Notes: a model not told the origin generated them from the sequence alone. A stretch of DNA of 36,275 nt from Gammaproteobacteria bacterium (GCA_041564355.1 JBFGQE010000002.1:1-36275); one strand, 5' to 3'; counted from the first letter of the stretch, positions 5,767 through 28,130 are shown. Numbers and translations: made by a program.

Positions 5767-5774
5767 TTCGAAGC

Positions 5775-6129
5775 AGGTGAGTCAGCCTGTAAGCCGGGTT
5801 CTGTCGAGGATAATCATTCATCTGGACCCGGAGTCGCCTCCCGGTCTCAAGCGACCAACCCGAAAACGGCGCGGGCCACGCCATGGTTTTCCTATTTGGT
5901 CTTGCTCCGGGTGGGGTTTACCCTGCCGCTCCTGTTACCAGGCGCGCGGTGCGCTCTTACCGCACCATTTCACCCTTACCGGGCTGCGCTTGCGCGCTGC
6001 GCCGGCGGTATACTTTCTGTTGCACTGGCCGTAGGCTCGCGCCCCCCAGACGTTATCTGGCACCCTGCCCTGCGGAGCCCGGACTTTCCTCCAGCCTGCG
6101 ATGCAGACCAGCGATTATCCGGCTGACTC
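5775..6129 (-). ncRNA. rnpB: RNase P RNA, bacterial type A
   Basis: The minus strand reads GAGTCAGCCGGATAATCGCTGG...GGAGGAAAGTCCGGGCTCCGCAGGGCAGGGTGCCAGATAACGTCTGGGGGG...ACAGAAAG...GGTAAGGGTGAAATGGTGCGGTAAGAGCGCACC...GGTAAACCCCACCCGGAGCAAG...ACAGAACCCGGCTTACAGGCTGACTCACCT. It contains the universally conserved P4/J-region blocks. P1 pairing is GAGTCAGCC (6129-6121) with GGCTGACTC (5787-5779). The plus-strand ORFs across this region are artefacts. Confidence 0.95.
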
Positions 6130-6136
6130 GGCGCCG

Positions 6137-6595: not shown

Positions 6596-8416
6596 ATGAC
6601 CTGGCAACGTCAAATTCTTCGCGTCAACCTGAGCGAGGGCAGCTGCAAGTTCGAACCGTTAAACATGGACTGGGCGCAGGATTACCTGGGGTCCCGGGGT
6701 CTCGGCAGCAAGTACCTGTATGAAGAAATGGATCCGTCGGTCGACGCGTTATCCCCGGAAAACAAGCTGATTTTCGCCACCGGTCCGCTGACCGGAACCA
6801 TGGCCTCCACCGGCGGCCGCTACACCGTTATCACCAAGGGTCCGCTGACCGGGGCGATCGCCTGCTCGAACTCGGGCGGCAAGTTCGGTGGCGAACTCAA
6901 GCTCGCCGGCTATGACCTGCTGATCATCGAGGGTGAGTCGGACAAGCCCGTTTACCTGCATATCGAGGATGACCGGGCCGAGATTTGCGATGCGGCCGAT
7001 ATCTGGGGCAAGACGGTCTGGGAAACCGAGGATTTCCTCGCCGAAAAATACCAGGACCCGCTGATGCGTTTCGCATCGATCGGCCGTGCCGGGGAAACCC
7101 TGTGCCGCTACGCCTGCGTGGTCAACGACAAGCATCGCGCCGCGGGCCGCTCCGGTGTCGGCGCGGTCATGGGTGCAAAAAAGATCAAGACTATCGCGGT
7201 ACGCGGCAGGAAGGGATTGAGCCATCCCGAGCCGAAAGCGTTTTTCGATATCATCAAGAATATCAACGCGCGCCTGACCGACCGCGAGGGCATGGCCCGC
7301 GACGGCACGCTGGCGATGATGGACGTGACCAACGGATTCGGCAGCCTGCCGACGCGCAACAATCGCAGCGTGCGTTTCGAAGGCGCCAACAAGCTGAACC
7401 CGGAGGCGATGCACACGCCGAACGAAAACGGCCACACCAACATCGTTCAGAACGGCGCCTGCTTCGCCTGCACCATCGGCTGCGGCCGGATCTGCAAGAT
7501 CGACCCGGCCCATTTCTCGGTCAAAGACCGGCCCGAGTATCACGGCGCCTCCGGCGGACTCGAGTATGAGACTGCTTACGCGCTCGGGTCCGCGGTCGGT
7601 GTCGACGATATCGACGCGGCGACTTTCGCGGGCTTCATGTGCAACGAGCATGGCATGGACCCCATATCGATGGGCGGGTCGATCGCCGCGGCAATGGAAC
7701 TGTTCGATATCGGCGCGATCGACGAGAAGACCACCGGCGGCATCAAGCTCGAGTTCGGCAACGCCGAGGCACTGTGCCAGATTTCAGAACTGACCGGCAA
7801 GGGCGAGGGATTCGGTGTCGACATCGGGCTGGGCTCGAAACGCCTGTGCGAAAAATACGGACATCCCGAGCTGTCGATGACGGTCAAGGGCCAGGAATTC
7901 GCCGCTTACGACGGCCGCTCGATGCAGGGTATGGGGCTGGCCTACGCGACCAGTAATCGCGGTGCCTGCCACCTGCGCGCGGATCCTTACGGGCATGACT
8001 TCGAAACCACCGAGATCGAGGGCAAGGCAAAAATCGTCGCCGATTCGCAGCGCGACGTCGCCTTCATCGATTCCAGCGGCCTGTGCCTGTTTCCCGGCGG
8101 CTGCGGCTGGACCCTGGAGGATTACCGCTCACTCGTCGATGCCGCCTGCGATGGCGACTGGTCCAGCGAAGCCCGCATGGTCGAGGTCGGCGAGCGTATC
8201 TGGAACCTGGAAAAGCTGTTCAATTTGAAAGCCGGCCTCGGCATGCAGGACGATACCCTGCCCCCGCGAATCCTCGAGGAGCCGGCCGATGTCGGCACCG
8301 GCAAGGGCCTGGTCTGCCGTCTCGGCGAAATGCTGCCCGAGTACTACGAGCATTGCGGCTGGGACCAGGACGGCGTGCCGAAAAAGGCGACGCTAGAGCG
8401 CCTCGGTCTCGCCTGA
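6596..8416 (+). CDS. aor: Aldehyde:ferredoxin oxidoreductase family protein (tungsto-/molybdopterin, 4Fe-4S)
   Basis: 606-aa ORF. The N-terminus (ILRVNLSEGSCKFEPL...YLGSRGLGSKYLYEEMDP..DALSPENKLIFATGPLTGT...GGRYTVITKGPLTG) aligns by eye with Pyrococcus-type AOR. Cluster motif CFACTIGC (CxxCxxxC), plus GLEYETAYALGS and DSSGLCLF pterin/cluster-region motifs. Confidence 0.92.
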   Translation: MTWQRQILRVNLSEGSCKFEPLNMDWAQDYLGSRGLGSKYLYEEMDPSVDALSPENKLIFATGPLTGTMASTGGRYTVITKGPLTGAIACSNSGGKFGGELKLAGYDLLIIEGESDKPVYLHIEDDRAEICDAADIWGKTVWETEDFLAEKYQDPLMRFASIGRAGETLCRYACVVNDKHRAAGRSGVGAVMGAKKIKTIAVRGRKGLSHPEPKAFFDIIKNINARLTDREGMARDGTLAMMDVTNGFGSLPTRNNRSVRFEGANKLNPEAMHTPNENGHTNIVQNGACFACTIGCGRICKIDPAHFSVKDRPEYHGASGGLEYETAYALGSAVGVDDIDAATFAGFMCNEHGMDPISMGGSIAAAMELFDIGAIDEKTTGGIKLEFGNAEALCQISELTGKGEGFGVDIGLGSKRLCEKYGHPELSMTVKGQEFAAYDGRSMQGMGLAYATSNRGACHLRADPYGHDFETTEIEGKAKIVADSQRDVAFIDSSGLCLFPGGCGWTLEDYRSLVDAACDGDWSSEARMVEVGERIWNLEKLFNLKAGLGMQDDTLPPRILEEPADVGTGKGLVCRLGEMLPEYYEHCGWDQDGVPKKATLERLGLA

Positions 8417-8747: not shown

Positions 8748-10241
8748 TCAGGCGGCGCATTCCTCGGTAGAGACCACTTCGCCATCGCCATCGAGGATTT
8801 CCAGTTTGACGCCGAAGCCCCAGAGTCGGCGTAAATGCCTGAGCACTTCTTCCCGGGTATCGGCCAGCGGAACCCGATTATGCGGCACGTGGCGCAGCGT
8901 CATGGACCGGTCGCCGCGCACGTCGACGTTGTGGACCTGGATATTGGGCTCGTTCATGCTCAGGTTATACTGGTTCGACAATGACTGGCGGATGTGCTGG
9001 TAGCCGGCGTCGTTGTGAATCGAGGTCACCTCGAGTTCGCTTAGCTCGTCGTCGTCAAGAATGGAGAACAGCTTGAAATCACGTATCAGGCGCGGCGAAA
9101 GGAACTACGAAATAAAGCTTTCGTCCTTGAAATTGCGCATCGCGAAATCGAGCGTTTCCTGCCAGTCCGAGCCGGCGATATCGGGAAACCACTTGCGATC
9201 CTCGTCGTCGGGGTCGGTACAGATGCGCTTGATGTCGGTCATCATTGCGTAGCCCAGCGCATACGGGTTGATCCCGGAAAAATACTCGCTGTCGAAATCC
9301 GGTTGCGCGACGACATTGGTGTGGCTCTGGATAAACTCCAGCATGAATCCGTCGGTCACCTTGCCGCGGTCGTAGAGCGCGTTCATGATCTGGTAATGCC
9401 AGAAGCAGGCCCAGCCCTCGTTCATCACCTGGGTCTGCCGCTGCGGGTAAAAGTATTGCCCGATCTTGCGCACGATGCGCACGACTTCGCGCTGCCAGGG
9501 CTCCAGCAGCGGCGCATTTTTTTCAATGAAATAGAGAATATTTTCCTGCGGCTCCTCGGGGAAGTTCGGCAGCGTCTCCTCCTCGATCTCGGCCACCTTC
9601 TGCGGAATGGTTTTGCGCCACAGGTCGTTTACCTGCGACTGCAGGTAGGCCTCGCGCTCCTTCAGGCGCTCCTTCTCTTCGCGCATCGAAACCGGGTTCG
9701 GTCGCTTGTATCGGTCGACCCCGTAATTTTGTAGCGCATGGCAAGAATCGAGCAGATTCTCGACTTCCTCGATACCGTAACGTTCTTCGCATTCGGCGAT
9801 ATAGCGCTTGGCGAAGACCAGGTAATCGATTATCGCCTCGGCATCGGTCCAGGCGCGAAACAGGTAATTACCCTTGAAAAAAGAATTGTGCCCGAAACTG
9901 GCGTGCGCGATGACCAGTGCCTGCATCATCATCGTGTTCTCTTCCATCAGGTAGGCGATACATGGGTTCGAATTGATCACGATTTCGTAAGCCAGTCCCA
10001 TGCGTCCGCGGCGATACTGCTGCTCGTTCTTGATGAAGTGCTTACCGAAGGACCAGTGGCTGTAGCCAATCGGCATGCCGATGCTGGCGTAGGCATCGAG
10101 CATTTGTTCGGCGGTTATCAGCTCGATCTGGTTGGGATAGGTGTCGAGTCCGAATTCCTCGGCGATCGATTCTATTTCGGCATGGTACTGTTCGATCAGT
10201 TCGAAGGTCCATTCCGCGCCGGTCGATATCGGTTCTCTCAT
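8748..10241 (-). pseudogene. ycgB: SpoVR/YcgB-family protein interrupted by a single in-frame TAG (9107-9105)
   Basis: ORF 9105-10241 (378 aa, [20 protein letters not shown]...RNFKDESFIS) stops at TAG. The same frame continues without further stops as FLSPRLIRDFKLFSILDDDELSELEVTSIHNDAGYQHIRQSLSNQYNLSMNEPNIQVHNVDVRGDRSMTLRH...LWGFGVKLEILD, ending at 8748. The two parts together (about 497 codons) match the full-length family. The upstream start overlaps the yeaH stop. Confidence 0.85.
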
Positions 10242-11503
10242 CGCTGCGCCTGTTTTCTGAAAAATTCGCGGAACACGGGGTAAATGTCTTCGTACTCGCG
10301 AATATGCTGCATCGCGAAATTATCGTGGCTGTCGAGCAGATGCTCGTAATGCTCCCACAGGCCCTGATGGTCACGCCGGGTAATCTCGACGTAAGCGTAG
10401 TAGCGCAGCTCCGGCAGCAATTGCTTGGCCAGGATTTGTTCGCACAACGGCGAATCATCGTTCCAGTTATCACCGTCGGAAGCCTGTGCCGCGTATATGT
10501 TCCAGTCGGTAGGCGGGTAGCGCTGCTGGATAATATCGCGCGTCAGCTCGAGCGCGCTGGAAACGATCGTGCCGCCGGTCTCGCGCGAGTAAAAAAACTC
10601 TTCCTCGTCGACTTCCTTGGCCTGGGTGTGGTGGCGAATATAGACCACGTCGACATCACGATAGCTCCGCGTCAGGAACAGGTAGAGCAGGATATAGAAG
10701 CGTTTCGCAATATCCTTGGTTTCCTGGTCCATCGAGCCGGATACGTCCATCAGGCAAAACATCACGGCCTGCGAGGTCGGCTCGGGACGCTGCACGAAAT
10801 TATTGAAGCGCAGATCGAAGGTATCGATAAACGGGATATTGCTGATCCGCTTGCGCAGCGTGTCGATTTCTTCCTCGAGCTCGATCAACCGGCTCTCCTC
10901 GCTACCCGGTTTTTGCTGCAGCGCTTCGAGTTCGGCCTCTAGCTCGCGCAGGCGACGCCGCGGTTCCGCGCCCATCGCGACGCGGCGGGACAGCGCCGAA
11001 CGCAACGAACGCACGATATTGATATTGGTCGGCACCCCATCGCTGGTGAAACCGGCGCGCACGGTCTTGCTCTTGGTCATCTTGCGCAGCTGGTTTTTTT
11101 GTAGGTTGGGCAGCTCGAGGTCATCGAAAAGCATGTCGAGGTACTCGTCCTTGGAAATCTCGAAGGAAAAATCGTCCTCGCCCTCGCCGCTGTCGCTGGC
11201 GCGGCGTCCCTGGCCCCCGCCCTGGCTCATCGGACGCTTGATCTTGTCGCCCTTGGCAAACTCCTTGTTGCCCGGGTAGACGCCCTCGCGCACCCCGCCC
11301 TGGTCGCTGCGAAAAGTCGGCTCGGAGATATCACGCGTCGGAATCGAGACGCTTTCGCCGCTATCGATGTTGGTAATCGATCGCTCGGAGATCTGTTCCG
11401 CGATCGCCTTCTTGATCTGCGTCTTGTAACGACGCAAAAAGCGTTGCCGGTTTACCGTGCTCTTGTTCTTCGCGTTCGGCCGTCTATCGATGAGTTGCGC
11501 CAT
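10238..11503 (-). CDS. yeaH: YeaH/YhbH family protein (DUF444, vWA-like)
   Basis: 421-aa [37 protein letters not shown]..., with a C-terminal MDVSGSM vWA/MIDAS-like motif. Lies between yeaG and ycgB as in the conserved three-gene operon. Confidence 0.9.
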
Positions 11504-11532
11504 TTCAGTACTCTACCTCGCAACCGCATCGC

Positions 11533-13455
11533 TTATGACGACTTCCTGACGCGCAGATACCATTCACAGAGCAGGCGTACCTGCTTTTCGGTGTAACCTT
11601 TCTCGACCATGCGCGAGACGAAATTGGCATGTTTCTTTTCATCTTCCTCGGATGCCTTGGCGCTGAACGAAATAACCGGGAGCAGTTCCTCGGTATTGGA
11701 GAACATCTTCTTTTCGATCACCGTGCGCAGTTTTTCGTAAGAGACCCATTCCGGGTTGTTGCCTTCATTTTGCGCACGTGCCCTTAACACGAAATTAACG
11801 ACCTCGTTACGAAAATCCTTCGGGTTCGAGATCCCGGCCGGTTTCTCGATTTTTTCCAACTCTTCGTTAAGCGACGCGCGGCCGAAGTTTTCCCCGGTCT
11901 CGGGATCGCGATATTCCTGGTCCTGGATCCAGAAATCGGCATAAGTGACGTAGCGATCGAAAATATTCTGCCCATACTCGGAGTAAGACTCGAGGTAAGA
12001 AGTCTGGATTTCCTTGCCGATAAACTCGACGTAATTCGGCACCAGGAAGGCCTTGATGTGCTCGAGGTAGCGATCATGCAACTCCTGGGGAAACTGTTCA
12101 CGGGCGATCTGTTGTTCGAGCACGTAGAGCAGGTGCACCGGGTTCGCCGCGACCTCGGTCTGGTCGAAATTGAACACGCGGGACAATATCTTGAACGCAA
12201 ACCGCGTCGACAGGCCGCGCATGCCTTCGTCGACGCCGGCGTAATCGCGGTACTCCTGGTAGGACTTGGCTTTCGGGTCGGTGTCCTTCAGGCTTTCCCC
12301 GTCGTAGACTCGCATCTTCGAATAGATACTCGAGTTTTCCGGGGTCATGAGACGCGACAAAACGCTGAACTGGGCCAGCATTTCCAGCGTGCTCGGCGCG
12401 CAGGGCGCCTCGGAGAGCGAACTGTTGGCCAGCAGCTTGTCGTAAATCCGGATTTCCTCGGAAACGCGCAGACAATAGGGCACCTTGACGATATAGACGC
12501 GGTCGAGAAACGCCTCGTTGTTCTTGTTATTCCGGAACGACTGCCATTCCGATTCGTTGGAATGCGCCAGGATCGTGCCTTCGAAAGGCAGCGCGGAAAG
12601 TCCCTCGGTGCCGTTGTAATTGCCTTCCTGGGTCGCCGTCAGCAACGGGTGCAACACCTTGATCGGAGCCTTGAACATTTCGACGAATTCCATCAAGCCC
12701 TGGTTGGCCCGGCACAGCGCGCCAGAGTAACTGTACGCGTCGGCATCGTTCTGCGCGTAGTGCTCGAGCATGCGGATATCGACCTTACCCACCAGCGACG
12801 AGATATCCTGGTTGTTTTCATCGCCCGGTTCGGTCTTGGCGATGGCGATCTGGTTCAGGATCGACGGCTGGATCTTGACCACCTTGAACTGGCTGATATC
12901 GCCGCCGAACTCGTTGAGGCGCTTTACCGCCCAGGGCGACATGATCTTGTTCAGGTAACGTCGCGCAATGCCGTACTCCTGCTCGAGGATTTCACCGTCC
13001 TCGTCGACATCGAACAGCCCCAGTGGCGATTCGAACACCGGCGAATCCTTGATCGCGTAGATCGGCAGCTTTTCCATCAGCGCCTTGAGCCGGTCCGCGA
13101 GCGAAGACTTACCGCCGCCGACGGGACCGAGCAAATAAAGGATTTGTTTCTTTTCCTCGAGGCCCTGCGCGGCGTGTTTGAAGTAGGACACGATCTGCTC
13201 GATCGAATCTTCCATGCCATAGAATTCGTCGAAAGCCGGGTAGCGCGCGATCAGCTTGTTGGAAAAAATCCGGCTGAGGCGGGGATCCTGCGAGGTGTCG
13301 ATCAGTTCGGGCTTGCCGATCGCAGCCAGCATGCGCTCCGCGGCGGTGGCATACACCAGCGGGTTTTCCTTGCACAGGTGTAAATAATCCTGCAACGAGA
13401 GCTCTTCCTGCAGGTGCTGTTCGAAACGCTGTTGATAACTTTCGAAAATGCTCAT
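11533..13455 (-). CDS. yeaG: PrkA-family serine protein kinase YeaG
   Basis: 640-aa ORF, MSIFESYQQRFEQ...LSLQDYLHLCKENPLVYATAAERML. Walker A motif LLGPVGGGKSSL. First gene of yeaG-yeaH-ycgB. Confidence 0.93.
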   Translation of the reverse strand: MSIFESYQQRFEQHLQEELSLQDYLHLCKENPLVYATAAERMLAAIGKPELIDTSQDPRLSRIFSNKLIARYPAFDEFYGMEDSIEQIVSYFKHAAQGLEEKKQILYLLGPVGGGKSSLADRLKALMEKLPIYAIKDSPVFESPLGLFDVDEDGEILEQEYGIARRYLNKIMSPWAVKRLNEFGGDISQFKVVKIQPSILNQIAIAKTEPGDENNQDISSLVGKVDIRMLEHYAQNDADAYSYSGALCRANQGLMEFVEMFKAPIKVLHPLLTATQEGNYNGTEGLSALPFEGTILAHSNESEWQSFRNNKNNEAFLDRVYIVKVPYCLRVSEEIRIYDKLLANSSLSEAPCAPSTLEMLAQFSVLSRLMTPENSSIYSKMRVYDGESLKDTDPKAKSYQEYRDYAGVDEGMRGLSTRFAFKILSRVFNFDQTEVAANPVHLLYVLEQQIAREQFPQELHDRYLEHIKAFLVPNYVEFIGKEIQTSYLESYSEYGQNIFDRYVTYADFWIQDQEYRDPETGENFGRASLNEELEKIEKPAGISNPKDFRNEVVNFVLRARAQNEGNNPEWVSYEKLRTVIEKKMFSNTEELLPVISFSAKASEEDEKKHANFVSRMVEKGYTEKQVRLLCEWYLRVRKSS

Positions 13456-22793: not shown

Positions 22794-24308
22794 CTAGTCG
22801 AGTTCGACCTCGTCAGCGACGCCGTCGGGCGGTACATCGTCTTCGATCTCGACAAATCCTCCGCCCGCCAGGTCGAGCGCATCGAAAAATTCGGTCGAGT
22901 TCGCGTACCCCTCGAATACGGTGCCCAGCAACGGGTCCGGGTCAACCATGTACTCGATTCCCAGGACCGTGATGGAGAAATCCCGCGTGTAGCTGTCAAT
23001 AGCGCCCTCAAGCTTCAGGTCTTCGGGGTCGACGCGCTTGACGATGCTCGCGATAACCTCGCCATTCACTTCCTGGCCCTCGACGCGAACGAAGTTGGTT
23101 GCCTGCAGCTGGTTCAGGTTAAAGTTCTGTACCGCGCCGGTATCGTCCTTGAACAACGTCTGGCCGTTCGTCCTGACCGAAACGGTTCCGGCCAGGGGAA
23201 GATAACTGACCTCGAAACGATTGTCGTTCGCGTCGACGAAATTGACGAAAGTGCGCAACTTGGTTTCACCCTGCCTGAGTTCGACCTCGTCGGCGATCAG
23301 CGTGCCACCGACGATCTCGCCCTCGACCTCGACCTCGACGCCATTTGCAACGATCGCACCTTCGGGCGAAATTCGCGCATCGCTCGCGTTGACCCGCTGC
23401 GCGCCGATAAAGAAATCCGCATCGATATCGGTAAAGCCGGAAACGATCCCTTGCAGGCTGATATCGTCGACGTTTTCGTCGAAGTCCTCGTCTTCATACT
23501 CGACCTCATCGGCAATCACCGACAGATCGTTCTGAATAACGCCCTTTACTTCGACGTATAAATCCTCAACCAGGACGTCGCCCGGCACATCTAGTTCGGT
23601 CGCAGCATTGGTAAATATATCGGGGCCGGTGCCATCAATTTGAAAGTTTTCGTCCGGGGGCGTGCCCGACAGGTTCTTGATCGCACCGCGCAGTTCAACC
23701 TGCGTCGATCCCGGAATCAGATCGTCGCGGAATTTCACGTAGGTCGCGACAATGTCGACCCCGGAGGACGCGGGGGACCTGAATCCACTGACTTCGACGA
23801 TGTCGGGTACATTCGGATCGCCCTCCATGCCGATCTGGGTGAAGCTGGTATCTTCAAATATCGTCTTGGTTTCATCGATCGCGATCGTCTTGCCAAAAAC
23901 ACTGAAGGTTCTTCCCCCGTCGACGGGTATGCTGACCGCGGTAACCGGGCCCTCGATTTCGTCGTCGTATATGACCTTCAATGCCTTGCCGGTGTAGGCC
24001 CCGTCCTGGGTCTCGACTTCGAGCCTGACCACCATGCCGACAGCGAGATCATCCTGTCCGATGCCCGCCCCCGATGCGCCGTCGACAATGAACTGGCTGC
24101 TGCTCGTATCGTAACGGTTGCCGTTGACGTAGACGCTGCCGAAGCCGGTAATCGTGCCAAACACGATGCCGGTGCCACCGATTCCGGCCGAAACGATCGC
24201 GCTGACAACGCTACTGCTGCCACCGCAAGCGCTGAGCAGCAGGCCTGAAAGCAGGAGCGATGCGATGGTAACGCCCGGCTTCACCTTTTTTTGCCTCGGT
24301 TGTGTCAT
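22794..24308 (-). CDS. Acidic six-module lipoprotein B (DUF5666-like repeats), function unknown
   Basis: 504-aa ORF with a signal peptide and lipobox LLLSAC. The mature N-terminus is CGGSSS. Signature ITGFGSVYVNG. Six beta-rich modules ending in VEVxG...ADEVE-type strands. C-terminal FFDAL...GFVEIEDD...EVELD. The ATG overlaps the preceding stop (ATGA). Confidence 0.8.
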   Translation of the reverse strand: MTQPRQKKVKPGVTIASLLLSGLLLSACGGSSSVVSAIVSAGIGGTGIVFGTITGFGSVYVNGNRYDTSSSQFIVDGASGAGIGQDDLAVGMVVRLEVETQDGAYTGKALKVIYDDEIEGPVTAVSIPVDGGRTFSVFGKTIAIDETKTIFEDTSFTQIGMEGDPNVPDIVEVSGFRSPASSGVDIVATYVKFRDDLIPGSTQVELRGAIKNLSGTPPDENFQIDGTGPDIFTNAATELDVPGDVLVEDLYVEVKGVIQNDLSVIADEVEYEDEDFDENVDDISLQGIVSGFTDIDADFFIGAQRVNASDARISPEGAIVANGVEVEVEGEIVGGTLIADEVELRQGETKLRTFVNFVDANDNRFEVSYLPLAGTVSVRTNGQTLFKDDTGAVQNFNLNQLQATNFVRVEGQEVNGEVIASIVKRVDPEDLKLEGAIDSYTRDFSITVLGIEYMVDPDPLLGTVFEGYANSTEFFDALDLAGGGFVEIEDDVPPDGVADEVELD

Positions 24309-25105
24309 GTCTTGTCTTCCTGTTCCTTCGCGTCGGGCTCGTGGTAAAACACGCTCACGCTGAGCTCGACGCTCTCTTCGTCGTTCGATTCGTGCTGCGC
24401 GAGGTACAGGTCGACTTCTTCGAGGAAGGCCTGGCCCTTGCGCTTCAAGAACTGTTTTATTTCCGGCACCGCGGCCGGCGCGACCTGCGGGTTCGATGCC
24501 TTGCGCTGAAAGCGCAGATCGGCCTCGTTCGCGGTCAGGTTGTAATCAATGGTTTCGATCAGCTGCGCGGCATCGGTGCCGAGGATTTTCAATTTCTCCT
24601 CCGGATCATCGGACGGCAGGTAGGCGTGACTCAGCAGGCGCAGCCGGTTGTCGTCGGTGAAACGGATATTGTTCGAACTTAGTAACACTTTCTGCATCGC
24701 CGCGACCGGCATGTCGCCGCTGTATTGCCTCACCAACTCGCTGAACGAATCCTGGCCCTCGTATTCCAGGTCGCGCGGATTTCCATCCTTGCGCAGAAAT
24801 CGCGGGTCATTGATCCAGCCACCGAGCACCCGTACCGCCCGATTGTACTGCTGGCTGGCCAATTCACCTTGATCGGCGTCACGCTCGTGCAATTTCTTGA
24901 CTTCCTTGCGATTCATCCCGGTCAGGATCGCAACATGGGATATGGTCTGCTTTTTTCCACGCGGGGCGAACTCGTCGAAGGCGACATCGACGAAACTCTC
25001 CCGCGCGATGCGGTCGAACTCGCCGTAGGACATGCCGTTGCGCAGCAAGGTTTTCGCCAGAGCCATCAGTATTTTTCTCAGTGTGTTTCGCAGCGTTTCT
25101 TGCAT
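24305..25105 (-). CDS. Uncharacterised cytoplasmic protein with helix-turn-helix motif
   Basis: The track ORF starts at 25243, overlapping the upstream gene with an R/S-rich, non-coding-looking extension. ATG 25105 gives the 266-aa MQETLRNTLRKILMALAKTLLRNGMSYGEFDRIARESF.... HTH-like stretch KQTISHVAILTGMNRKEVKKL. No signal peptide. I do not recognise the family. Confidence 0.7.
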   Translation of the reverse strand: MQETLRNTLRKILMALAKTLLRNGMSYGEFDRIARESFVDVAFDEFAPRGKKQTISHVAILTGMNRKEVKKLHERDADQGELASQQYNRAVRVLGGWINDPRFLRKDGNPRDLEYEGQDSFSELVRQYSGDMPVAAMQKVLLSSNNIRFTDDNRLRLLSHAYLPSDDPEEKLKILGTDAAQLIETIDYNLTANEADLRFQRKASNPQVAPAAVPEIKQFLKRKGQAFLEEVDLYLAQHESNDEESVELSVSVFYHEPDAKEQEDKT

Positions 25106-25118
25106 GGTGTCCAGAGTC

Positions 25119-25154
25119 AGAAGCCCGAGGTCCAATTTCAACACACGGGCTTCT
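25119..25154 (-). other. Intercistronic stem-loop between lipoprotein A and the HTH gene
   Basis: AGAAGCCCG (25119-25127) pairs with CGGGCTTCT (25146-25154): a 9-bp perfect stem with an 18-nt loop and no T-run. It lies in the 55-nt gap. Confidence 0.4.
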
Positions 25155-25160
25155 CGTTCA

Positions 25161-26573
25161 CTAGTCTTCCAGCTCGGCTTTGTCGAAAACGCCGTTGCTG
25201 TCCGAATCCTCGATTTCGATAAATCGACCGACCGCGAGCGCATCGAAAAACGCCTCGGCAGTCATATTTACATCGTTTTCGTCTTCGAAAGTCGCCGCGG
25301 AAAGATCGAAATCGATTCCCAGCAGGCGTACCTTGCGGGTGGTCTTGACGAAATCCTGAAGCGGCGCCTCGATTTCGATTTCGTTGGCTGACTCGCGTTC
25401 GATTTCGACCGCATTGATCACTCCCGAACCGTCCCCGAAAGCCTCGAGCTCAACGAAGTTACCCGCGGAGAAATCAGCCAGTTGCGTGACCGGGTTTCCG
25501 GTTTGGTCTTCCAGTTCGGTCTGCGCGCTGACCCGAGCGACAACATCGCTGCCGTTAAACCTGAAGGTGACGCGATCGCTGCCCACTGCCGCAAGCGGCG
25601 CGCTGATCTTGATCTTGTTGCCGCGCTGCTTGACCTTGTCGGCAAACAGCACGCCTTTGACCACCTGCCCTTCGACTTCGACGGTCACGCCGTCGTCCAG
25701 TACCAGCGAGGTGGGAAAAAGCACCGCGCCACCGGCATCCACCGGCATACCCTGGACAATAAAACTGTCGTCGGCGGGATCGAAATCTGAAATAACGCCC
25801 TCGATTTCGAATTCGTCCACATCGTCGAAATCGTCGTCCTCGCCCTCTATCTTGTCCGCGATCAGCGACGTGCCGGCGCCATCGAGACGGCCCTCGACCT
25901 CGACCAGCAAATCGTCCGCCAGCGTGGAAATATCCTCCCGCTCGGTCGCGGTATCGTAACTGACCGGAAATCCGTTGATCGTGAAACTGGTCATGGTCAG
26001 ATTGTCGATCCGACCGCGAATCTCGATCTCGTCATCGTTGGCCTGCAATTCGACATGGGTCGCGACCAGCCCCGAGTCCGTGGTAAACCCGCTGACCTCG
26101 AGTACGTCACCCAGGGCGACCGTGGCGAAGCTCAATCCGCCATCGTCGTCGAAGATCGTATTCGCGTTGATTTCAACATTTTGTCCGAGGATCAGCAGCG
26201 TCTTGCGGGTCAGGTCAAGCGGATCAGGAGTAATACTGGCGACCGGGCCCTTGAGTTCATTGTCGTACTCGATGTGCTCGGCGCGCCAGTTGCGCCGATC
26301 GTCGGTGGAGCCGCGTACGGTTACGACCATGCCGATTCGAAGTTCGGCCTCGCTGCCAGGATTGTCGTCGACGATAAAGCGTGTACCGCCGGTATGGAAG
26401 CGAATGCCGTTGACATAGACGCTGCCGAATCCGGTAATCATGCCGCGGCTCGCAATCGAATCGATACGGGTATCGTCGGAATCCGAAGACGACCCGCCAC
26501 AGCCTGAAGCCATCGCGGCAAGCATCGCCAGCGCGATCGCGGAGATTTTACAGGTCGGTCCATTCAGTTTCAT
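25161..26573 (-). CDS. Acidic six-module lipoprotein A (DUF5666-like repeats), function unknown
   Basis: 470-aa ORF with a signal peptide and lipobox AMASGC. The mature N-terminus is CGGSSS. Signature ITGFGSVYVNG. Colinear with protein B, module for module. C-terminal FFDALAVGRFIEIEDSD...AELED. SD GAGGTG lies 4 nt before the ATG. Confidence 0.8.
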   Translation of the reverse strand: MKLNGPTCKISAIALAMLAAMASGCGGSSSDSDDTRIDSIASRGMITGFGSVYVNGIRFHTGGTRFIVDDNPGSEAELRIGMVVTVRGSTDDRRNWRAEHIEYDNELKGPVASITPDPLDLTRKTLLILGQNVEINANTIFDDDGGLSFATVALGDVLEVSGFTTDSGLVATHVELQANDDEIEIRGRIDNLTMTSFTINGFPVSYDTATEREDISTLADDLLVEVEGRLDGAGTSLIADKIEGEDDDFDDVDEFEIEGVISDFDPADDSFIVQGMPVDAGGAVLFPTSLVLDDGVTVEVEGQVVKGVLFADKVKQRGNKIKISAPLAAVGSDRVTFRFNGSDVVARVSAQTELEDQTGNPVTQLADFSAGNFVELEAFGDGSGVINAVEIERESANEIEIEAPLQDFVKTTRKVRLLGIDFDLSAATFEDENDVNMTAEAFFDALAVGRFIEIEDSDSNGVFDKAELED

Positions 26574-26585
26574 TTTTCACCTCAA

Positions 26586-26603
26586 TTGGGATTTTATTCC
26601 CAA
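26586..26603. promoter_or_regulatory. Proximal 18-bp palindrome TTGGGA-TTTTAT-TCCCAA (operator candidate)
   Basis: Perfect 6-bp arms. In gene orientation it reads TTGGGAATAAAATCCCAA, with the spacer containing TAAAAT. It ends 2 nt upstream of the SD of lipoprotein A. Confidence 0.55.
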
Positions 26604-26620
26604 AATAATAAAAAGTCTTT

Positions 26621-26647
26621 AAAAAACCCGCCAAAACATACGGCAGG
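26621..26647 (-). terminator. Hairpin plus T6 between the two palindromes (hisGD terminator or leader attenuator)
   Basis: Gene orientation: CCTGCC-GTATGTTTT-GGCGGG-TTTTTT. This is a 6-bp stem including one G-U pair (26647-26642 with 26632-27), followed by a T6 run (26626-21). Confidence 0.4.
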
Positions 26648-26660
26648 GGAATAATCATAT

Positions 26661-26694
26661 TTGGGATTATATTCCCAAATTTATCAAAGAGCAA
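26661..26694 (-). promoter_or_regulatory. Distal 18-bp palindrome TTGGGA-TTATAT-TCCCAA overlapping a sigma70-like promoter
   Basis: Palindrome at 26661-26678, extendable to the 22-bp ATTTGGGA...TCCCAAAT. In gene orientation the spacer contains a perfect TATAAT (26671-26666), and TTGCTC (26694-26689) lies 17 nt upstream. Confidence 0.5.
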
Positions 26695-26822
26695 GATTTA
26701 ATTGCCGCTCTCGGTGAAAAAATGTTAGCAATGAGGGCGAAACGCCCGCAAAGGCCGTGGTGGACGTGAACGCTCACGAGATCCCGCTTAAGCGCCGGGG
26801 CGCTGTTCGGGAGGAACCGACG

Positions 26823-28130
26823 TCAGGCGTCGGACCGCTTGATGCGATACTCGGCAGAACGGGCGTGTGCGACGAGGCCCTCGCCGCGCGCGAGCGTCGA
26901 GGCGACCTTGCCCTGCGCGGACGCGCCAGCAGCGGAGCAGCCGATCAGGCTGGATCGTTTCTGGAAATCGTAAACCCCGAGCGGCGACGAGAAGCGCGCG
27001 GTACCCGAGGTCGGTAACACGTGATTCGGTCCGGCGCAGTAGTCACCGAGCGCCTCGGCGGTGTAGCGGCCGAGGAAAATGGCGCCGGCGTGACGGATCG
27101 ATGCGGCAACCTCGCGCGCATTGTCCAGCGATAGCTCGAGGTGTTCCGGCGCGATCCGGTTGGCGACCTCGACCGCCGTCGCCAGGTCCGGCACCCCGAT
27201 CAAGGCCCCACGGGCGCTCAGCGATTGGTCGATAATGTCGCGCCGCGGCATTTCCTCGATCAGGCGCTCGATGCTCTCAGCCACGCGGTCGAGAAAGTCG
27301 CCATCCGGCGAGAGCAGGATTGCCTGCGCGTCCTCGTCGTGCTCGGCCTGGGAAAACAAGTCCATCGCAATCCAGTCCGGATCGGTCTTGCCATCACAAA
27401 TCACCAGGATCTCGGACGGTCCGGCAACCATGTCGATGCCGACCGTGCCGAATACCATTCGCTTGGCGGTAGCCACGTAAATATTGCCCGGACCGACGAT
27501 CTTGTCTACCGCCGGCACGGTTTCGGTGCCATAGGCCAGAGCCGCCACCGCCTGCGCGCCGCCGATCGTGAACACGCGACTGACGCCGGCGATATGCGCG
27601 GCGGCGAGCACGAGTTCATTGACCACGCCACGCGGGGTCGGCACGACCATGATCAACTCATCGACGCCCGCTACCGCGGCCGGTATCGCGTTCATCAGTA
27701 CCGACGATGGATACGCGGCCTTGCCGCCAGGCACGTAAAGACCGACCCGGTCCAGCGGGCTGACCTGCTGCCCGAGCAGGGTGCCATCCTCGTCGGTGTA
27801 TTCCCAGGAGTCGAGTTTTTGTCTTTCGGCATAAGTCCGAATCCGCGCGGCCGCGTGCTCGAGCGCCTCGCGTTCGGCCGTCTCGATGCCGGCGCAGGCC
27901 TCGCGCAAGCGCGCCAGCGGCATCTCCAGCTCGCTCGCCGCGCTGACGTCGAGCCCGTCGAAACGCGCGGTCAGTTCGAGCAGGGCCTCGTCCCCGTCGC
28001 TTCTGACTCGCTGCAGAATGTCGCGAACCGTGTCAACCACCCGTTCGTCGGTTCCCGCATCCCAATCCAGCAGTTCGCGCAGCTCGGCTTCGAACCCGGC
28101 GGCGCGGCTGTCGAGGCGTCGAATCTGCAT
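26823..28130 (-). CDS. hisD: Histidinol dehydrogenase
   Basis: 435-aa ORF with family-typical blocks: ...[23 protein letters not shown]..., [20 protein letters not shown]. The start overlaps the hisG stop. Confidence 0.95.

What the first reader, a model, noticed from the sequence alone, without database searches (positions are those of the whole stretch)
22794..26700. Uncharacterised three-gene operon: two paralogous acidic lipoproteins bracketing a cytoplasmic HTH protein
A compact minus-strand operon sits between the convergent algW/degS gene and hisGD. As I recall, Pseudomonas carries hisC at this position. The first gene is lipoprotein A (25161-26573, 470 aa, lipobox ASG|C). A 55-nt gap with a stem-loop follows. 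The second gene encodes a 266-aa protein with no signal peptide and a canonical HTH stretch (KQTISHVAILTGMNRKEVKKL). The third is lipoprotein B (22794-24308, 504 aa, lipobox LSA|C), whose ATG overlaps the preceding stop (ATGA). A and B are colinear paralogues. They share the mature N-terminus CGGSSS, the signature ITGFGSVYVNG, the six-module layout and the C-terminal FFDAL...F[IV]EIED...EL.D tail. Both are strikingly D/E-rich. I recognise the GFGS.xVNG-type module as Pfam DUF5666 (recollection, not searched), for which I know no assigned function. I do not recognise the middle protein. A regulator-like gene embedded between two exported paralogues, with dedicated palindromic sites upstream, looks like a self-contained envelope module of unknown role. 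Cation binding, a surface scaffold or a sensing device are only guesses.
Basis: partly seen in the sequence, partly recalled or inferred. Interest (0 to 1): 0.75.

Follow-up and report, generated by a model that had tools for sequence, protein, structure and literature searches.

The report
Self-regulated HetR-like regulator and acidic lipoprotein module
The three genes are real, but the conserved unit is a widespread two-gene cassette: a DNA-binding regulator whose predicted fold resembles the cyanobacterial developmental regulator HetR, sitting on its own promoter, plus a very acidic lipoprotein built of six small barrel domains; here an extra copy of the lipoprotein has been added, and what the lipoproteins do is still unknown.

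Summary
Three minus-strand genes lie at the stated coordinates. A and B are colinear paralogues and each gives six DUF5666 hits. The middle protein is Pfam DUF6502. None of the three has a characterised function.

In 80 species-level loci the DUF6502 gene is followed at once by a DUF5666 lipoprotein gene. Of the 82 DUF6502 genes, 75 have this partner and 42 overlap it by ATGA. Lipoprotein A occurs only in the window's own clade.

A palindrome, TGGGA-N6-TCCCA, marks the cassette promoter. I found 90 perfect sites in 887 kb against 0.85 expected. Its spacer is the -10 box. In about 42-44 of the 82 genes a TTGACA lies 16-17 bp upstream and the start codon 2-4 nt downstream, which predicts a leaderless mRNA. 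An independent metagenome scan found the 18-mer upstream of DUF6502 or DUF5666 genes in 52 of the 92 occurrences with a scorable downstream gene.

The AlphaFold model of DUF6502 (pLDDT 86) has one significant PDB match, HetR bound to DNA (Foldseek E 7e-5), with no sequence signal. The model of B resembles the six-domain ribosomal protein bS1.

Best reading: a HetR-fold autorepressor controls polyanionic envelope lipoproteins. The lipoprotein's own role is a guess.

The parts
26661..26678 (-). Operator/promoter site 1 (P1). It reads TTGGGAATATAATCCCAA on the minus strand. The palindrome half-sites TGGGA/TCCCA flank a consensus -10 box TATAAT. A -35-like TTGCTC lies 17 bp upstream.
   Evidence: Perfect match. 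The same element sits upstream of the cassette in 63 of 79 loci. P1 has a -35-like TTGNNN hexamer, or a near match to it, at about 17 bp throughout the clade.
26621..26647 (-). Intrinsic-terminator-like hairpin (CCTGCCG...CGGCGGG) followed by a T-run, lying between the two operator sites.
   Evidence: the 87-nt stretch containing it folds at -21.7 kcal/mol, z -2.3. In clade relatives a hairpin of different sequence plus a T-run and 'AAAGACTTT' occupies the same place. Its role is unexplained.
26586..26603 (-). Operator/promoter site 2 (P2). It reads TTGGGAATAAAATCCCAA on the minus strand with -10 TAAAAT. It is followed by ttGAGGtgaaaaATG, the Shine-Dalgarno sequence and start of gene A.
25161..26573 (-). 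Lipoprotein A: 470 aa, lipobox ASG|C25, six DUF5666 modules, pI 4.07. It is a clade-specific paralogue of B.
   Evidence: A-like genes are upstream only in L010-L012, L016, L017, L019, L020, L025 and L026.
25106..25160 (-). A-to-DUF6502 intergenic spacer with a 9-bp stem-loop (25119-25154). The loop sequence GTTGAAATT is conserved across the clade.
   Evidence: The covariation test was inconclusive.
24305..25105 (-). DUF6502 protein: 266 aa, cytoplasmic. It is the predicted HetR-fold HTH transcription factor and the proposed autorepressor.
   Evidence: Pfam PF20112, 176.5 bits. AlphaFold pLDDT 85.9. Foldseek match to HetR-DNA 4j00_A, E 7e-5.
24890..24952 (-). Helix-turn-helix of DUF6502 (K52-L72). 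The recognition-helix motif TG[LM]x-RKE-[VA]-K is nearly invariant across the family.
22794..24308 (-). Lipoprotein B: 504 aa, lipobox LSA|C28, six DUF5666 barrel modules, pI 4.05. It is the universal partner of DUF6502 and its start overlaps the DUF6502 stop (ATGA).
   Evidence: AlphaFold pLDDT 84.8. Foldseek top match is the six-domain ribosomal protein bS1, E 2.9e-7.

Best explanation
This is a self-contained, self-regulated envelope module.

Core cassette. The ancestral core has two genes. The first encodes a DUF6502 protein, a cytoplasmic dimer-type HTH transcription factor whose predicted three-part fold resembles HetR. The second encodes a DUF5666 lipoprotein: a lipid-anchored string of six small OB/S1-like beta-barrels with a net charge near -60. 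Its translation is usually coupled to that of the regulator.

Proposed regulation (inferred, not shown). The regulator binds the palindrome TGGGA-N6-TCCCA. The two half-site centres lie 11 bp apart, about one helical turn. The half-sites flank the -10 hexamer of the cassette's own sigma-70 promoter, so a bound dimer should block RNA polymerase. An unknown signal, presumably sensed by the non-DNA-binding parts of the protein, should release it. In most lineages the start codon lies 7-8 nt after the -10 box, so the regulator's message is predicted to be leaderless.

This window. In the window's clade a second, paralogous lipoprotein gene (A) with its own Shine-Dalgarno sequence sits between the promoter and the regulator gene. 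The promoter-operator is duplicated, with a terminator-like hairpin between the two copies. An intercistronic stem-loop follows gene A.

Wider set of sites. The same operator also precedes other genes for exported proteins in related genomes.

Lipoprotein role (a guess). The most likely job is that of a polyanionic, probably outer-membrane-anchored rod or scaffold that binds cations such as Ca2+, Mg2+ or metals, or positively charged or mineral surfaces, in the envelope.
For: Gene pairing. The DUF6502-then-DUF5666 order is kept in 75 of 82 DUF6502 genes. Of these, 42 share a 4-nt overlap and 19 have a gap of 0-15 nt. The pair also occurs in Desulfobacteraceae-type contigs. No other neighbouring gene family is shared by more than 15 loci.

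Operator. There are 90 perfect TGGGA-N6-TCCCA sites in 887 kb of loci against 0.85 expected. 63 of 79 loci have one within 420 nt upstream of a cassette gene. The half-sites do not vary and the spacer is a -10 box: TATAAT 12 times, TATATT 9, TATAGT 6. A perfect TTGACA -35 occurs in 23 of 44 cases, mostly at 16-17 bp. The start codon follows 2-4 nt after the palindrome in 44 of 82 genes; one or two of these may be chance in-frame ATGs.

Independent scan. An exact 18-mer scan of metagenome contigs gave 122 occurrences. 30 were directly upstream of DUF6502 genes, 22 of those with a 2-3 nt gap. Another 22 were upstream of DUF5666-like genes. The same design is seen in the Desulfobacteraceae-type loci.

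Regulator. G63, R66 and K67 of the HTH are invariant, and T62 and E68 nearly so. The motif TGLxRKE[VA]K is almost unchanged across loci that are only about 40% identical overall. This matches the unvarying half-site. The AlphaFold model has pLDDT 85.9. Its only significant PDB match is HetR bound to DNA: E 7e-5, probability 1.00, 304 aligned columns; the next hit has E 0.2. HetR binds GGG-N5-CCC through an HTH in a five-helix N-terminal domain (PMC4649674).

Lipoproteins. Lipoboxes are conserved in the partner proteins, which have 12-25% D+E and 3-7% K+R. The B model has pLDDT 84.8 and six all-beta modules. Its top Foldseek match is six-domain bS1, followed by other tandem S1 and cold-shock proteins.
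Against: No binding, transcript or localisation data exist. Every functional step is inferred from sequence.

The HetR resemblance is at fold level only. TM-scores are 0.42 and 0.38 with rmsd 13 A. hmmsearch against PDB sequences, hhalign against HetR and lenient Pfam scans of 46 members show no sequence relationship.

The HTH and the operator half-sites are both invariant, so co-variation of specificity could not be tested.

In the window itself the -35 elements are weak: 3 of 6 matches for both P1 and P2. The regulator gene here is not leaderless.

The purpose of translationally coupling a cytoplasmic regulator to an exported protein is unexplained. Nothing speaks directly to cation binding: B has no His, no Trp and no Cys beyond the lipid anchor. 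The bS1 match is a match of architecture, not of function.

Two loci (L064, L075) have a DUF6502 gene without a DUF5666 partner.
Confidence: 0.6

Rival explanations
1. The palindrome is the site of some other regulator, for example a global one, and the cassette is simply one of its targets. On this view DUF6502 is not a DNA-binding protein. It would be a cytoplasmic partner of the lipoprotein, for example a chaperone, targeting factor or modification factor for the very acidic precursor, which would explain the translational coupling.
For: Translational coupling is typical of proteins that meet physically. The motif also precedes genes with no DUF6502 gene immediately beside them. No sequence-level membership in a known transcription factor family was found.
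Against: The site lies at the DUF6502 gene's own promoter across two phyla. The model shows a canonical HTH, and its only strong structural match is a DNA-bound transcription factor. The weaker matches are also mostly winged-helix and HTH regulators. The most conserved residues are basic residues of the recognition helix.
Confidence: 0.15
2. The palindrome works as RNA, as a 5'-UTR hairpin controlling translation or stability, or is just an unusual promoter feature with no dedicated binding protein.
For: In the window, site 2 would be transcribed from P1 and is predicted to pair as a hairpin just before the Shine-Dalgarno sequence of gene A. The CCC just downstream of the -10 box could act as a C-rich discriminator (own knowledge of promoter-sigma region 1.2 contacts).
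Against: The stem bases never change, and there is not a single compensatory substitution in 79 sites, while the 'loop' keeps -10 character. That is the pattern of a protein-DNA site, not of an RNA helix. In the commonest layout the palindrome lies upstream of the predicted transcription start and would not be transcribed. No Rfam family matches above threshold.
Confidence: 0.05
3. The module is a feedback loop like HetR-PatX. The exported lipoprotein, or a fragment released from it in the periplasm, reports envelope status back to the HetR-like regulator. That would explain why the two genes are locked together.
For: There is a precedent. HetR is inactivated by a peptide cut in the periplasm from the Sec-exported precursor PatX (PMC12756182), and the peptide binds the C-terminal hood domain (PMC4649674). 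Here a HetR-like fold is always encoded next to an exported protein. In the window and 14 other loci a DegS/AlgW-type periplasmic protease gene lies next to the cassette.
Against: No RGSGR-like motif is evident in the A and B sequences or in the A4 consensus. The protease adjacency is confined to one clade and belongs to conserved backbone synteny. No re-import route is evident. The hood-like part of DUF6502 has no detectable sequence similarity to the HetR hood.
Confidence: 0.1

Closest known systems
HetR, master regulator of heterocyst differentiation in filamentous cyanobacteria (PDB 4j00, 4yrv, 3qod)
   Same: It is the only significant structural match of the DUF6502 model, and the match runs the full length. 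Both are about 270-300 aa. Both start with a five-helix domain carrying the HTH, followed by mixed alpha/beta parts. Both recognise a palindrome built on a G-triplet and a C-triplet: HetR GGG-N5-CCC and here GGG-N8-CCC. hetR is described as autoregulated (title of Black et al. 1993, seen in the reference list). HetR is paired with an exported partner, PatX.
   Different: There is no detectable sequence similarity. The triplet spacing is 3 bp longer. HetR is chiefly an activator that binds upstream of promoters (own knowledge), whereas this site covers the -10 box, which implies repression. HetR is reported only from cyanobacteria, while DUF6502 is found in Gammaproteobacteria and Desulfobacteraceae-type genomes. 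Intertwined dimerisation and peptide control could not be tested.
Classical autorepressors whose operators overlap their own promoter and whose mRNA is leaderless (lambda cI at PRM, Tn1721 TetR; own knowledge)
   Same: The regulator gene comes first, the operator covers core promoter elements, and the start codon sits at the predicted transcription start.
   Different: The fold family is different. Here the -10 hexamer lies exactly in the spacer of the palindrome, and this geometry is fixed across the two phyla sampled. No transcript ends have been mapped.
Ribosomal protein bS1 and other tandem S1/cold-shock (OB-fold) proteins
   Same: The model of B is a string of six small five-stranded barrels, and bS1 is its best PDB match (E 2.9e-7).
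   Different: A and B are exported, lipid-anchored and strongly acidic (pI about 4), so nucleic-acid binding is implausible. There is no sequence hit to S1 or CSD families. Global TM-score is only 0.13 because the beads are arranged differently.
Periplasmic OB-fold proteins such as the BOF family (YgiW, YdeI) and CusF (own knowledge; not tested here)
   Same: They are small beta-barrel modules exported to the envelope and linked to stress or metal handling.
   Different: They have one domain, not six. CusF binds metal through Met, His and Trp, which B lacks. No sequence or fold match to them was obtained.

Membership tests
Pfam DUF5666 (PF18914) | Score above the curated gathering threshold (27 bits) | tested here: met
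   A scores 139.9 bits with six stretches and B scores 86.6 bits with six stretches.
Pfam DUF6502 (PF20112) | Score above the curated gathering threshold (27 bits), near full-length match | tested here: met
   176.5 bits, residues 5-240 against profile positions 4-240 of 268. All 46 diverse relatives also match.
Bacterial lipoproteins | N-terminal signal peptide ending in a lipobox with an invariant Cys | tested here: met
   ASG|C25 in A and LSA|C28 in B. A lipobox pattern was found in 54 of 62 partner proteins, and most of the others show one by eye. C28 is nearly invariant in alignment A4. This is a pattern-level test only; no dedicated predictor was run and there is no lipidation data.
HetR family (Pfam Peptidase_S48 / HetR_C) | Detectable sequence membership | tested here: not met
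   No Pfam hit other than DUF6502 even at E up to 10 in 46 members. hhalign against HetR gives probability 0.3%. hmmsearch against PDB sequences does not find HetR.
HetR family (Pfam Peptidase_S48 / HetR_C) | Three-domain fold: DNA-binding domain, flap and hood | tested here: inconclusive
   Foldseek E 7e-5, probability 1.00, 304 aligned columns, but TM 0.42/0.38 and rmsd 13 A. No per-domain superposition was possible.
HetR family (Pfam Peptidase_S48 / HetR_C) | Recognition of the GGG-N5-CCC palindrome | tested here: not met
   The associated palindrome is GGG-N8-CCC (TGGGA-N6-TCCCA). It has the same triplets at a different spacing, and binding itself was not tested.
HetR family (Pfam Peptidase_S48 / HetR_C) | Intertwined homodimer; inhibition by RGSGR-type peptide at the hood | not testable with these tools
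   Only monomer prediction was available. No RGSGR-like motif is evident in the A and B sequences or in the A4 consensus.
Leaderless mRNA genes | Transcription start at, or within a few nt of, the start codon | not testable with these tools
   Only promoter geometry supports it: the -10 box ends 7-8 nt before the ATG in about 42-44 of 82 genes. This needs 5'-RACE or dRNA-seq. It does not apply to the window's own DUF6502 gene.
Autorepressor with promoter-overlapping operator | Palindromic site overlapping core promoter elements of the regulator's own transcription unit | tested here: met
   Occupancy by DUF6502 was not tested.
S1 / OB-fold nucleic-acid-binding proteins | Sequence membership and a basic or aromatic binding face | tested here: not met
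   No S1 or CSD Pfam hit. pI about 4 and no Trp in B. The resemblance is of fold and architecture only.
Known anti-phage defence or phage protein families | Match to PADLOC or PHROGs models | tested here: not met
   No hits for any of the three proteins.

The most novel reading that the evidence does not exclude
DUF6502 is an ancient non-cyanobacterial branch of the HetR fold, a fold so far described as cyanobacteria-specific and 'novel'. On this reading the pairing of a HetR-type regulator with a co-encoded exported protein is older than cyanobacterial patterning. The cassette would be an envelope-to-cytoplasm feedback loop in which the state of the lipoprotein, or a fragment of it, sets the regulator's activity, in the way PatX acts on HetR. 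Its regulon would consist of exported proteins, including PKD/multihaem-cytochrome lipoproteins.
Probability: 0.12. Interest if true: 0.85.

Novelty: new variant of a known kind. Interest (0 to 1): 0.62.

Why it matters
Two large families are currently labelled only 'domain of unknown function'. DUF6502 alone has 3692 clusters at 50% identity with E up to 0.001. This work gives both families a concrete, testable framework: one cognate operator sequence, one promoter design and one obligatory gene pairing.

If the HetR resemblance is real, the developmental master regulator of cyanobacteria has relatives in sediment Gammaproteobacteria and Desulfobacterota. That bears on where HetR came from.

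The fixed design, with the -10 box inside the operator and the start codon at the predicted transcription start, would be an unusually clear and conserved case of leaderless expression in Proteobacteria.

The operator also gives a direct handle for defining a regulon. Exact or near-exact copies lie upstream of genes for DUF5666 lipoproteins, PKD/multihaem cytochromes and a membrane Fe-S flavoprotein in uncultured marine bacteria.

Tried and rejected
- NCBIfam gave nothing useful.
- Sequence searches of PDB found no relative, either with the single proteins or with family profiles.
- hhalign of the DUF6502 profile against HetR gave no signal, and lenient Pfam scans of 46 members found no HetR family. 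I therefore do not file DUF6502 as a HetR family member.
- PADLOC and PHROGs gave no hits, so a defence-system or phage origin was dropped.
- The first genome scan, with a 46-sequence alignment, failed because no stretch was conserved enough. It was repeated with 12 sequences.
- My first motif pattern had the wrong spacing and found nothing. It was corrected.
- tblastn for remnants of gene A in relatives that lack it found only divergent full-length DUF5666 genes in L022 and L024. The 14-of-27-residue C-terminal remnant in L021 is my own reading of the sequence and is only suggestive.
- The covariation test of the A-to-DUF6502 intergenic hairpin was inconclusive: 2 compensatory pairs and consensus energy -3.1 kcal/mol.
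- Rfam gave only a sub-threshold manA-II hit over site 1 and the terminator (30.6 bits against a threshold of 100). I treat it as chance.
- Literature searches for DUF6502, DUF5666, their Pfam accessions and 'HetR-like' found only incidental listings.
- Co-variation between recognition-helix residues and operator bases could not be used, because both are invariant.
Full report
**Observation.** The three minus-strand ORFs are at the reported coordinates. They are lipoprotein A (25161-26573, 470 aa), a 266-aa protein (24305-25105) and lipoprotein B (22794-24308, 504 aa).
- The B start overlaps the preceding stop (ATGA).
- The 55-nt gap between A and the middle gene holds a perfect 9-bp stem that folds at -20.3 kcal/mol, z -3.3.
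- A and B are colinear paralogues: 33% identity over their whole length, E 1e-41.
- Both have lipoboxes and are very acidic, with pI about 4.05 and net charge near -58.
- Flanking genes are a convergent DegS/AlgW-like protease on one side and hisD-hisG-murA on the other.

**Family assignment.** A and B each give six hits to Pfam DUF5666. The middle protein is a full-length member of Pfam DUF6502 (176.5 bits). NCBIfam, PADLOC, PHROGs and PDB sequence searches gave nothing. The held literature mentions DUF5666 only in lists and does not mention DUF6502 at all. DUF6502 is a large family, with 3692 clusters at 50% identity scoring E up to 0.001.

**What is conserved.** I fetched 80 species-level genomic loci encoding DUF6502 relatives at 40-78% identity. 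All are Gammaproteobacteria or unresolved Proteobacteria, and nearly all are metagenome-assembled genomes. They include Thiohalobacter, Thiogranum, Ectothiorhodospiraceae, Halioglobus and NOR5-3. I searched their six-frame ORFs with A, B and the middle protein.
- The DUF6502 gene is followed directly by a roughly 500-aa DUF5666 gene in 75 of 82 cases. Five of the rest are contig ends and two are true exceptions, L064 and L075.
- 42 pairs share the ATGA or GTGA overlap and 19 have a gap of 0-15 nt.
- The same pair occurs in two Desulfobacteraceae-type contigs.
- No other neighbouring family is shared by more than 15 loci.
- An A-like gene upstream is present only in the window's close clade (L010-L012, L016, L017, L019, L020, L025, L026). 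It is missing in equally close relatives such as L001, which keeps the algW/NIF3/petABC flank.
- Several A-less relatives keep the promoter block and the sequence around A's stop codon. One, L021, appears to keep a C-terminal stub of A, by my own reading.

So A was probably ancestral to this clade and later lost repeatedly. The core module is the regulator gene plus B.

**The operator is the promoter.** The two palindromes upstream of A (TTGGGA-N6-TCCCAA at 26586-26603 and 26661-26678) belong to a family-wide element.
- Across the loci there are 90 perfect TGGGA-N6-TCCCA sites in 887 kb, against 0.85 expected. 63 of 79 loci have one within 420 nt upstream of a cassette gene.
- The ten half-site bases do not vary. 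The spacer is a -10 hexamer, most often TATAAT, TATATT or TATAGT.
- A -35 box (perfect TTGACA in 23 of 44) lies mostly 16-17 bp upstream.
- In 44 of 82 genes the start codon follows 2-4 nt after the palindrome. One or two of these may be chance in-frame ATGs in the close clade.
- The usual layout is therefore TTGACA-N16/17-[TGGGAA TATAAT CCCA]-aat-ATG. This predicts a strong sigma-70 promoter, an operator straddling its -10 box and a leaderless message.
- The same layout appears in the Desulfobacteraceae-type loci.
- An unbiased exact scan of metagenome contigs for the 18-mer gave 122 occurrences. 30 were directly upstream of DUF6502 genes and 22 upstream of DUF5666-like genes. 30 lay at contig edges and 40 were next to other genes, some of them clearly unrelated gut-metagenome repeats.

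The stem bases never change and show no compensatory substitutions. In the common layout the site lies upstream of the predicted transcript. A protein-DNA site therefore fits far better than an RNA hairpin.

**The regulator.** AlphaFold, run with a 136-sequence alignment, gave a confident model: pLDDT 85.9, pTM 0.71.
- It has five N-terminal helices, with the HTH at residues 55-73.
- A mixed alpha/beta middle part and two long C-terminal helices follow.
- Foldseek against PDB returned one significant match, Fischerella HetR bound to DNA (4j00_A): E 7e-5, probability 1.00, 304 aligned columns. The next hit has E 0.2.
- HetR has a five-helix DNA-binding domain with an HTH, a flap and a hood. It forms an intertwined dimer and recognises GGG-N5-CCC. 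Its flap and hood were described as novel folds (PMC4649674).
- HetR is treated in the literature as arising within cyanobacteria.

The parallels are a full-length fold match and a palindrome built on G and C triplets. The limits are clear, however. TM-scores are only 0.42 and 0.38. No sequence signal exists. The triplets are 3 bp further apart. I therefore say that DUF6502 folds like and probably binds DNA like HetR. I do not call it a member of the HetR family.

The HTH motif TG-L-x-RKE-[VA]-K is almost unchanged among proteins only about 40% identical overall. This mirrors the unvarying half-site, but it also prevents a co-variation test.

**The lipoproteins.** The partner proteins keep a lipobox Cys followed by a Gly/Ser linker. 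They have 12-25% D+E against 3-7% K+R. The AlphaFold model of B (pLDDT 84.8) has six all-beta modules. Its best PDB match is the six-domain ribosomal protein bS1 (E 2.9e-7), followed by other tandem S1 and cold-shock proteins. A DUF5666 module is thus an OB/S1-like barrel, and the protein is a string of beads. Export, lipid anchoring and pI 4 rule out nucleic-acid binding. No solved relative exists at sequence level.

**Other genes carrying the site.** Exact or one-mismatch copies of the site, all intergenic, lie upstream of the following genes:
- further DUF5666 genes (L022, L024, L062, L077);
- a membrane Fe-S flavoprotein followed by an ankyrin-repeat protein, seen repeatedly (L001, L010, L014, L017, L027, L198; one mismatch except in L198);
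- PKD-domain multihaem cytochromes, one MtrC-like (L059) and one with a lipobox (L179);
- a beta-propeller protein (L075);
- a PKD/DUF3466 protein (L141);
- a c-type cytochrome (L083);
- a DUF4956 protein (L036).

Many of these look exported, but I did not test that for all of them. The picture suggests a regulon weighted towards envelope proteins, and it gives no clear inducing signal.

**Anatomy in this window.** Reading along the minus strand:
- The hisD stop is at 26823.
- P1 (site 1) has a TATAAT -10 box.
- A terminator-like hairpin with a T-run follows at 26647-26621. The 87-nt stretch containing it folds at -21.7 kcal/mol, z -2.3.
- 'AAAGACTTT' comes next.
- P2 (site 2) has TAAAAT, then GAGG and the ATG of A.
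- Gene A is followed by the stem-loop with the conserved GTTGAAATT loop.
- The DUF6502 gene has only a weak GGA as a ribosome-binding site.
- B is coupled to it through ATGA.

The P1-terminator-P2 block is conserved across the clade, with hairpins of different sequence in the same place. Why a good promoter fires into a terminator about 45 nt later is unexplained. It could be a small RNA, an attenuator, an insulator or simply paired operators 73-84 bp apart. The hairpin after A may stabilise the A message or hide an internal promoter. The covariation test was inconclusive.

**Mechanism and confidence.** I think the following is most likely.
- A DUF6502 dimer sits on TGGGA-N6-TCCCA, whose half-site centres are 11 bp apart, and blocks the -10 box.
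- This gives tight negative autoregulation of an intrinsically strong promoter.
- An unknown signal releases the regulator, which then produces a burst of polyanionic, probably outer-membrane-anchored bead-string lipoproteins.
- In this clade A would be made in excess over the regulator and B.

The regulatory half rests on strong comparative evidence, and I give it about 0.7. The lipoprotein's job, as a cation- or surface-binding rod or scaffold, is a guess based on charge and architecture; I give it about 0.3. My overall confidence in the statement as worded is 0.6.

The rival explanations are a different binding protein with DUF6502 acting as a cytoplasmic partner of the lipoprotein (0.15), a HetR-PatX-like feedback loop from the exported partner (0.1) and an RNA-level role for the palindrome (0.05).

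**Novelty.** Both families are catalogued but uncharacterised. In the searchable literature I found no description of any of the following: the obligatory pairing, the cognate operator, the operator-in-promoter and predicted leaderless design, the HetR-like fold outside cyanobacteria, or the OB-bead architecture of DUF5666. In kind it is a transcription factor with its regulated operon, so I rate it a new variant of a known kind rather than categorically new.

Noticed in passing
window 26621-26678 (minus strand); also L007, L008, L010-L014, L017, L019, L021: The block 'promoter/operator 1, then about 45 nt, then a hairpin with a T-run, then AAAGACTTT, then promoter/operator 2' is conserved. 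The hairpin differs in sequence between relatives but keeps its position. A good promoter appears to fire straight into a terminator, and the purpose is unknown (small RNA, attenuator, insulator or paired operators).
   Followed up: partly
window 25106-25160; 12 relatives aligned in A5: The A-to-DUF6502 intergenic hairpin has a loop of conserved sequence, GTTGAAATT, which contains a -35-like TTGAAA. The stems vary between relatives. RNAalifold found only 2 compensatory pairs, so it could be an RNA element or an internal promoter.
   Followed up: partly
L021 about 7900-8000, L015, L001 9814-9990: Close relatives that lack gene A keep the sequence around its stop codon (gacTAGTGAA). In L021 there is an apparent stub of the C-terminus (IIIETRDSDSNALFIRAQFED against FIEIEDSDSNGVFDKAELED). 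This suggests A was lost repeatedly. tblastn was too insensitive to confirm it.
   Followed up: partly
L001 6186; L010 2963; L014 4163; L017 2958; L027 4187; L198: The same operator (one mismatch, except the exact 18-mer in L198) recurs upstream of a gene for a membrane-anchored 4Fe-4S plus FAD/pyridine-nucleotide oxidoreductase. In L001 this gene is followed by a 688-aa ankyrin/Sel1-repeat protein and lies beside multihaem cytochrome genes.
   Followed up: partly
L059 4793; L179; L075 5660 and 5739; L141; L083 12914: Operator copies precede genes for a PKD-domain, MtrC-like multihaem cytochrome (L059), a PKD lipoprotein with haem-binding motifs (L179), a beta-propeller protein (PF09826), a PKD/DUF3466 protein and a c-type cytochrome. 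These hint at a regulon of exported redox proteins.
   Followed up: partly
L036 1337-3744 and 7989-10333: One genome carries two complete DUF6502-DUF5666 cassettes 6.6 kb apart, each with its own operator-promoter.
   Followed up: no
L204 9056-10318; L205 9395-10660: In the Desulfobacteraceae-type loci the pair is followed by a gene for a DUF4382 plus CarboxypepD_reg-like protein and preceded by an HDOD-GGDEF gene.
   Followed up: no
window 5774-6130 (minus strand): Bacterial RNase P RNA class A (324 bits), lying in the low-GC stretch next to the mraW-ftsI-murE cluster.
   Followed up: yes
window 6596-8416 (plus strand): A full-length aldehyde:ferredoxin oxidoreductase (AFOR_N plus AFOR_C), a tungsten-type enzyme that I would not have expected in an apparent gammaproteobacterium.
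   Followed up: no
window 9105-13455 (minus strand): A PrkA - DUF444 - SpoVR gene triad (the yeaG-yeaH-ycgB type stress module).
   Followed up: no
window 23001-27000: GC content is 56-59% across the operon against 62-66% in the flanking genes. This could reflect acquisition or simply the many GAN codons for Asp and Glu.
   Followed up: no
L090, L093, L114, L134, L142, L180, L200: The exact 18-mer also occurs 29 nt upstream of an identical 391-aa P-loop/ATPase-like gene (GPRQVGKST motif, not annotated) in several contigs, at least one of them from human gut. This is probably an unrelated repeated element and counts as background in the motif scan.
   Followed up: no
window 26620-26683 (minus strand): A sub-threshold Rfam hit to the manA-II motif (30.6 bits against a gathering score of 100, E 0.022) over site 1 and the terminator. 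I treat it as chance.
   Followed up: partly
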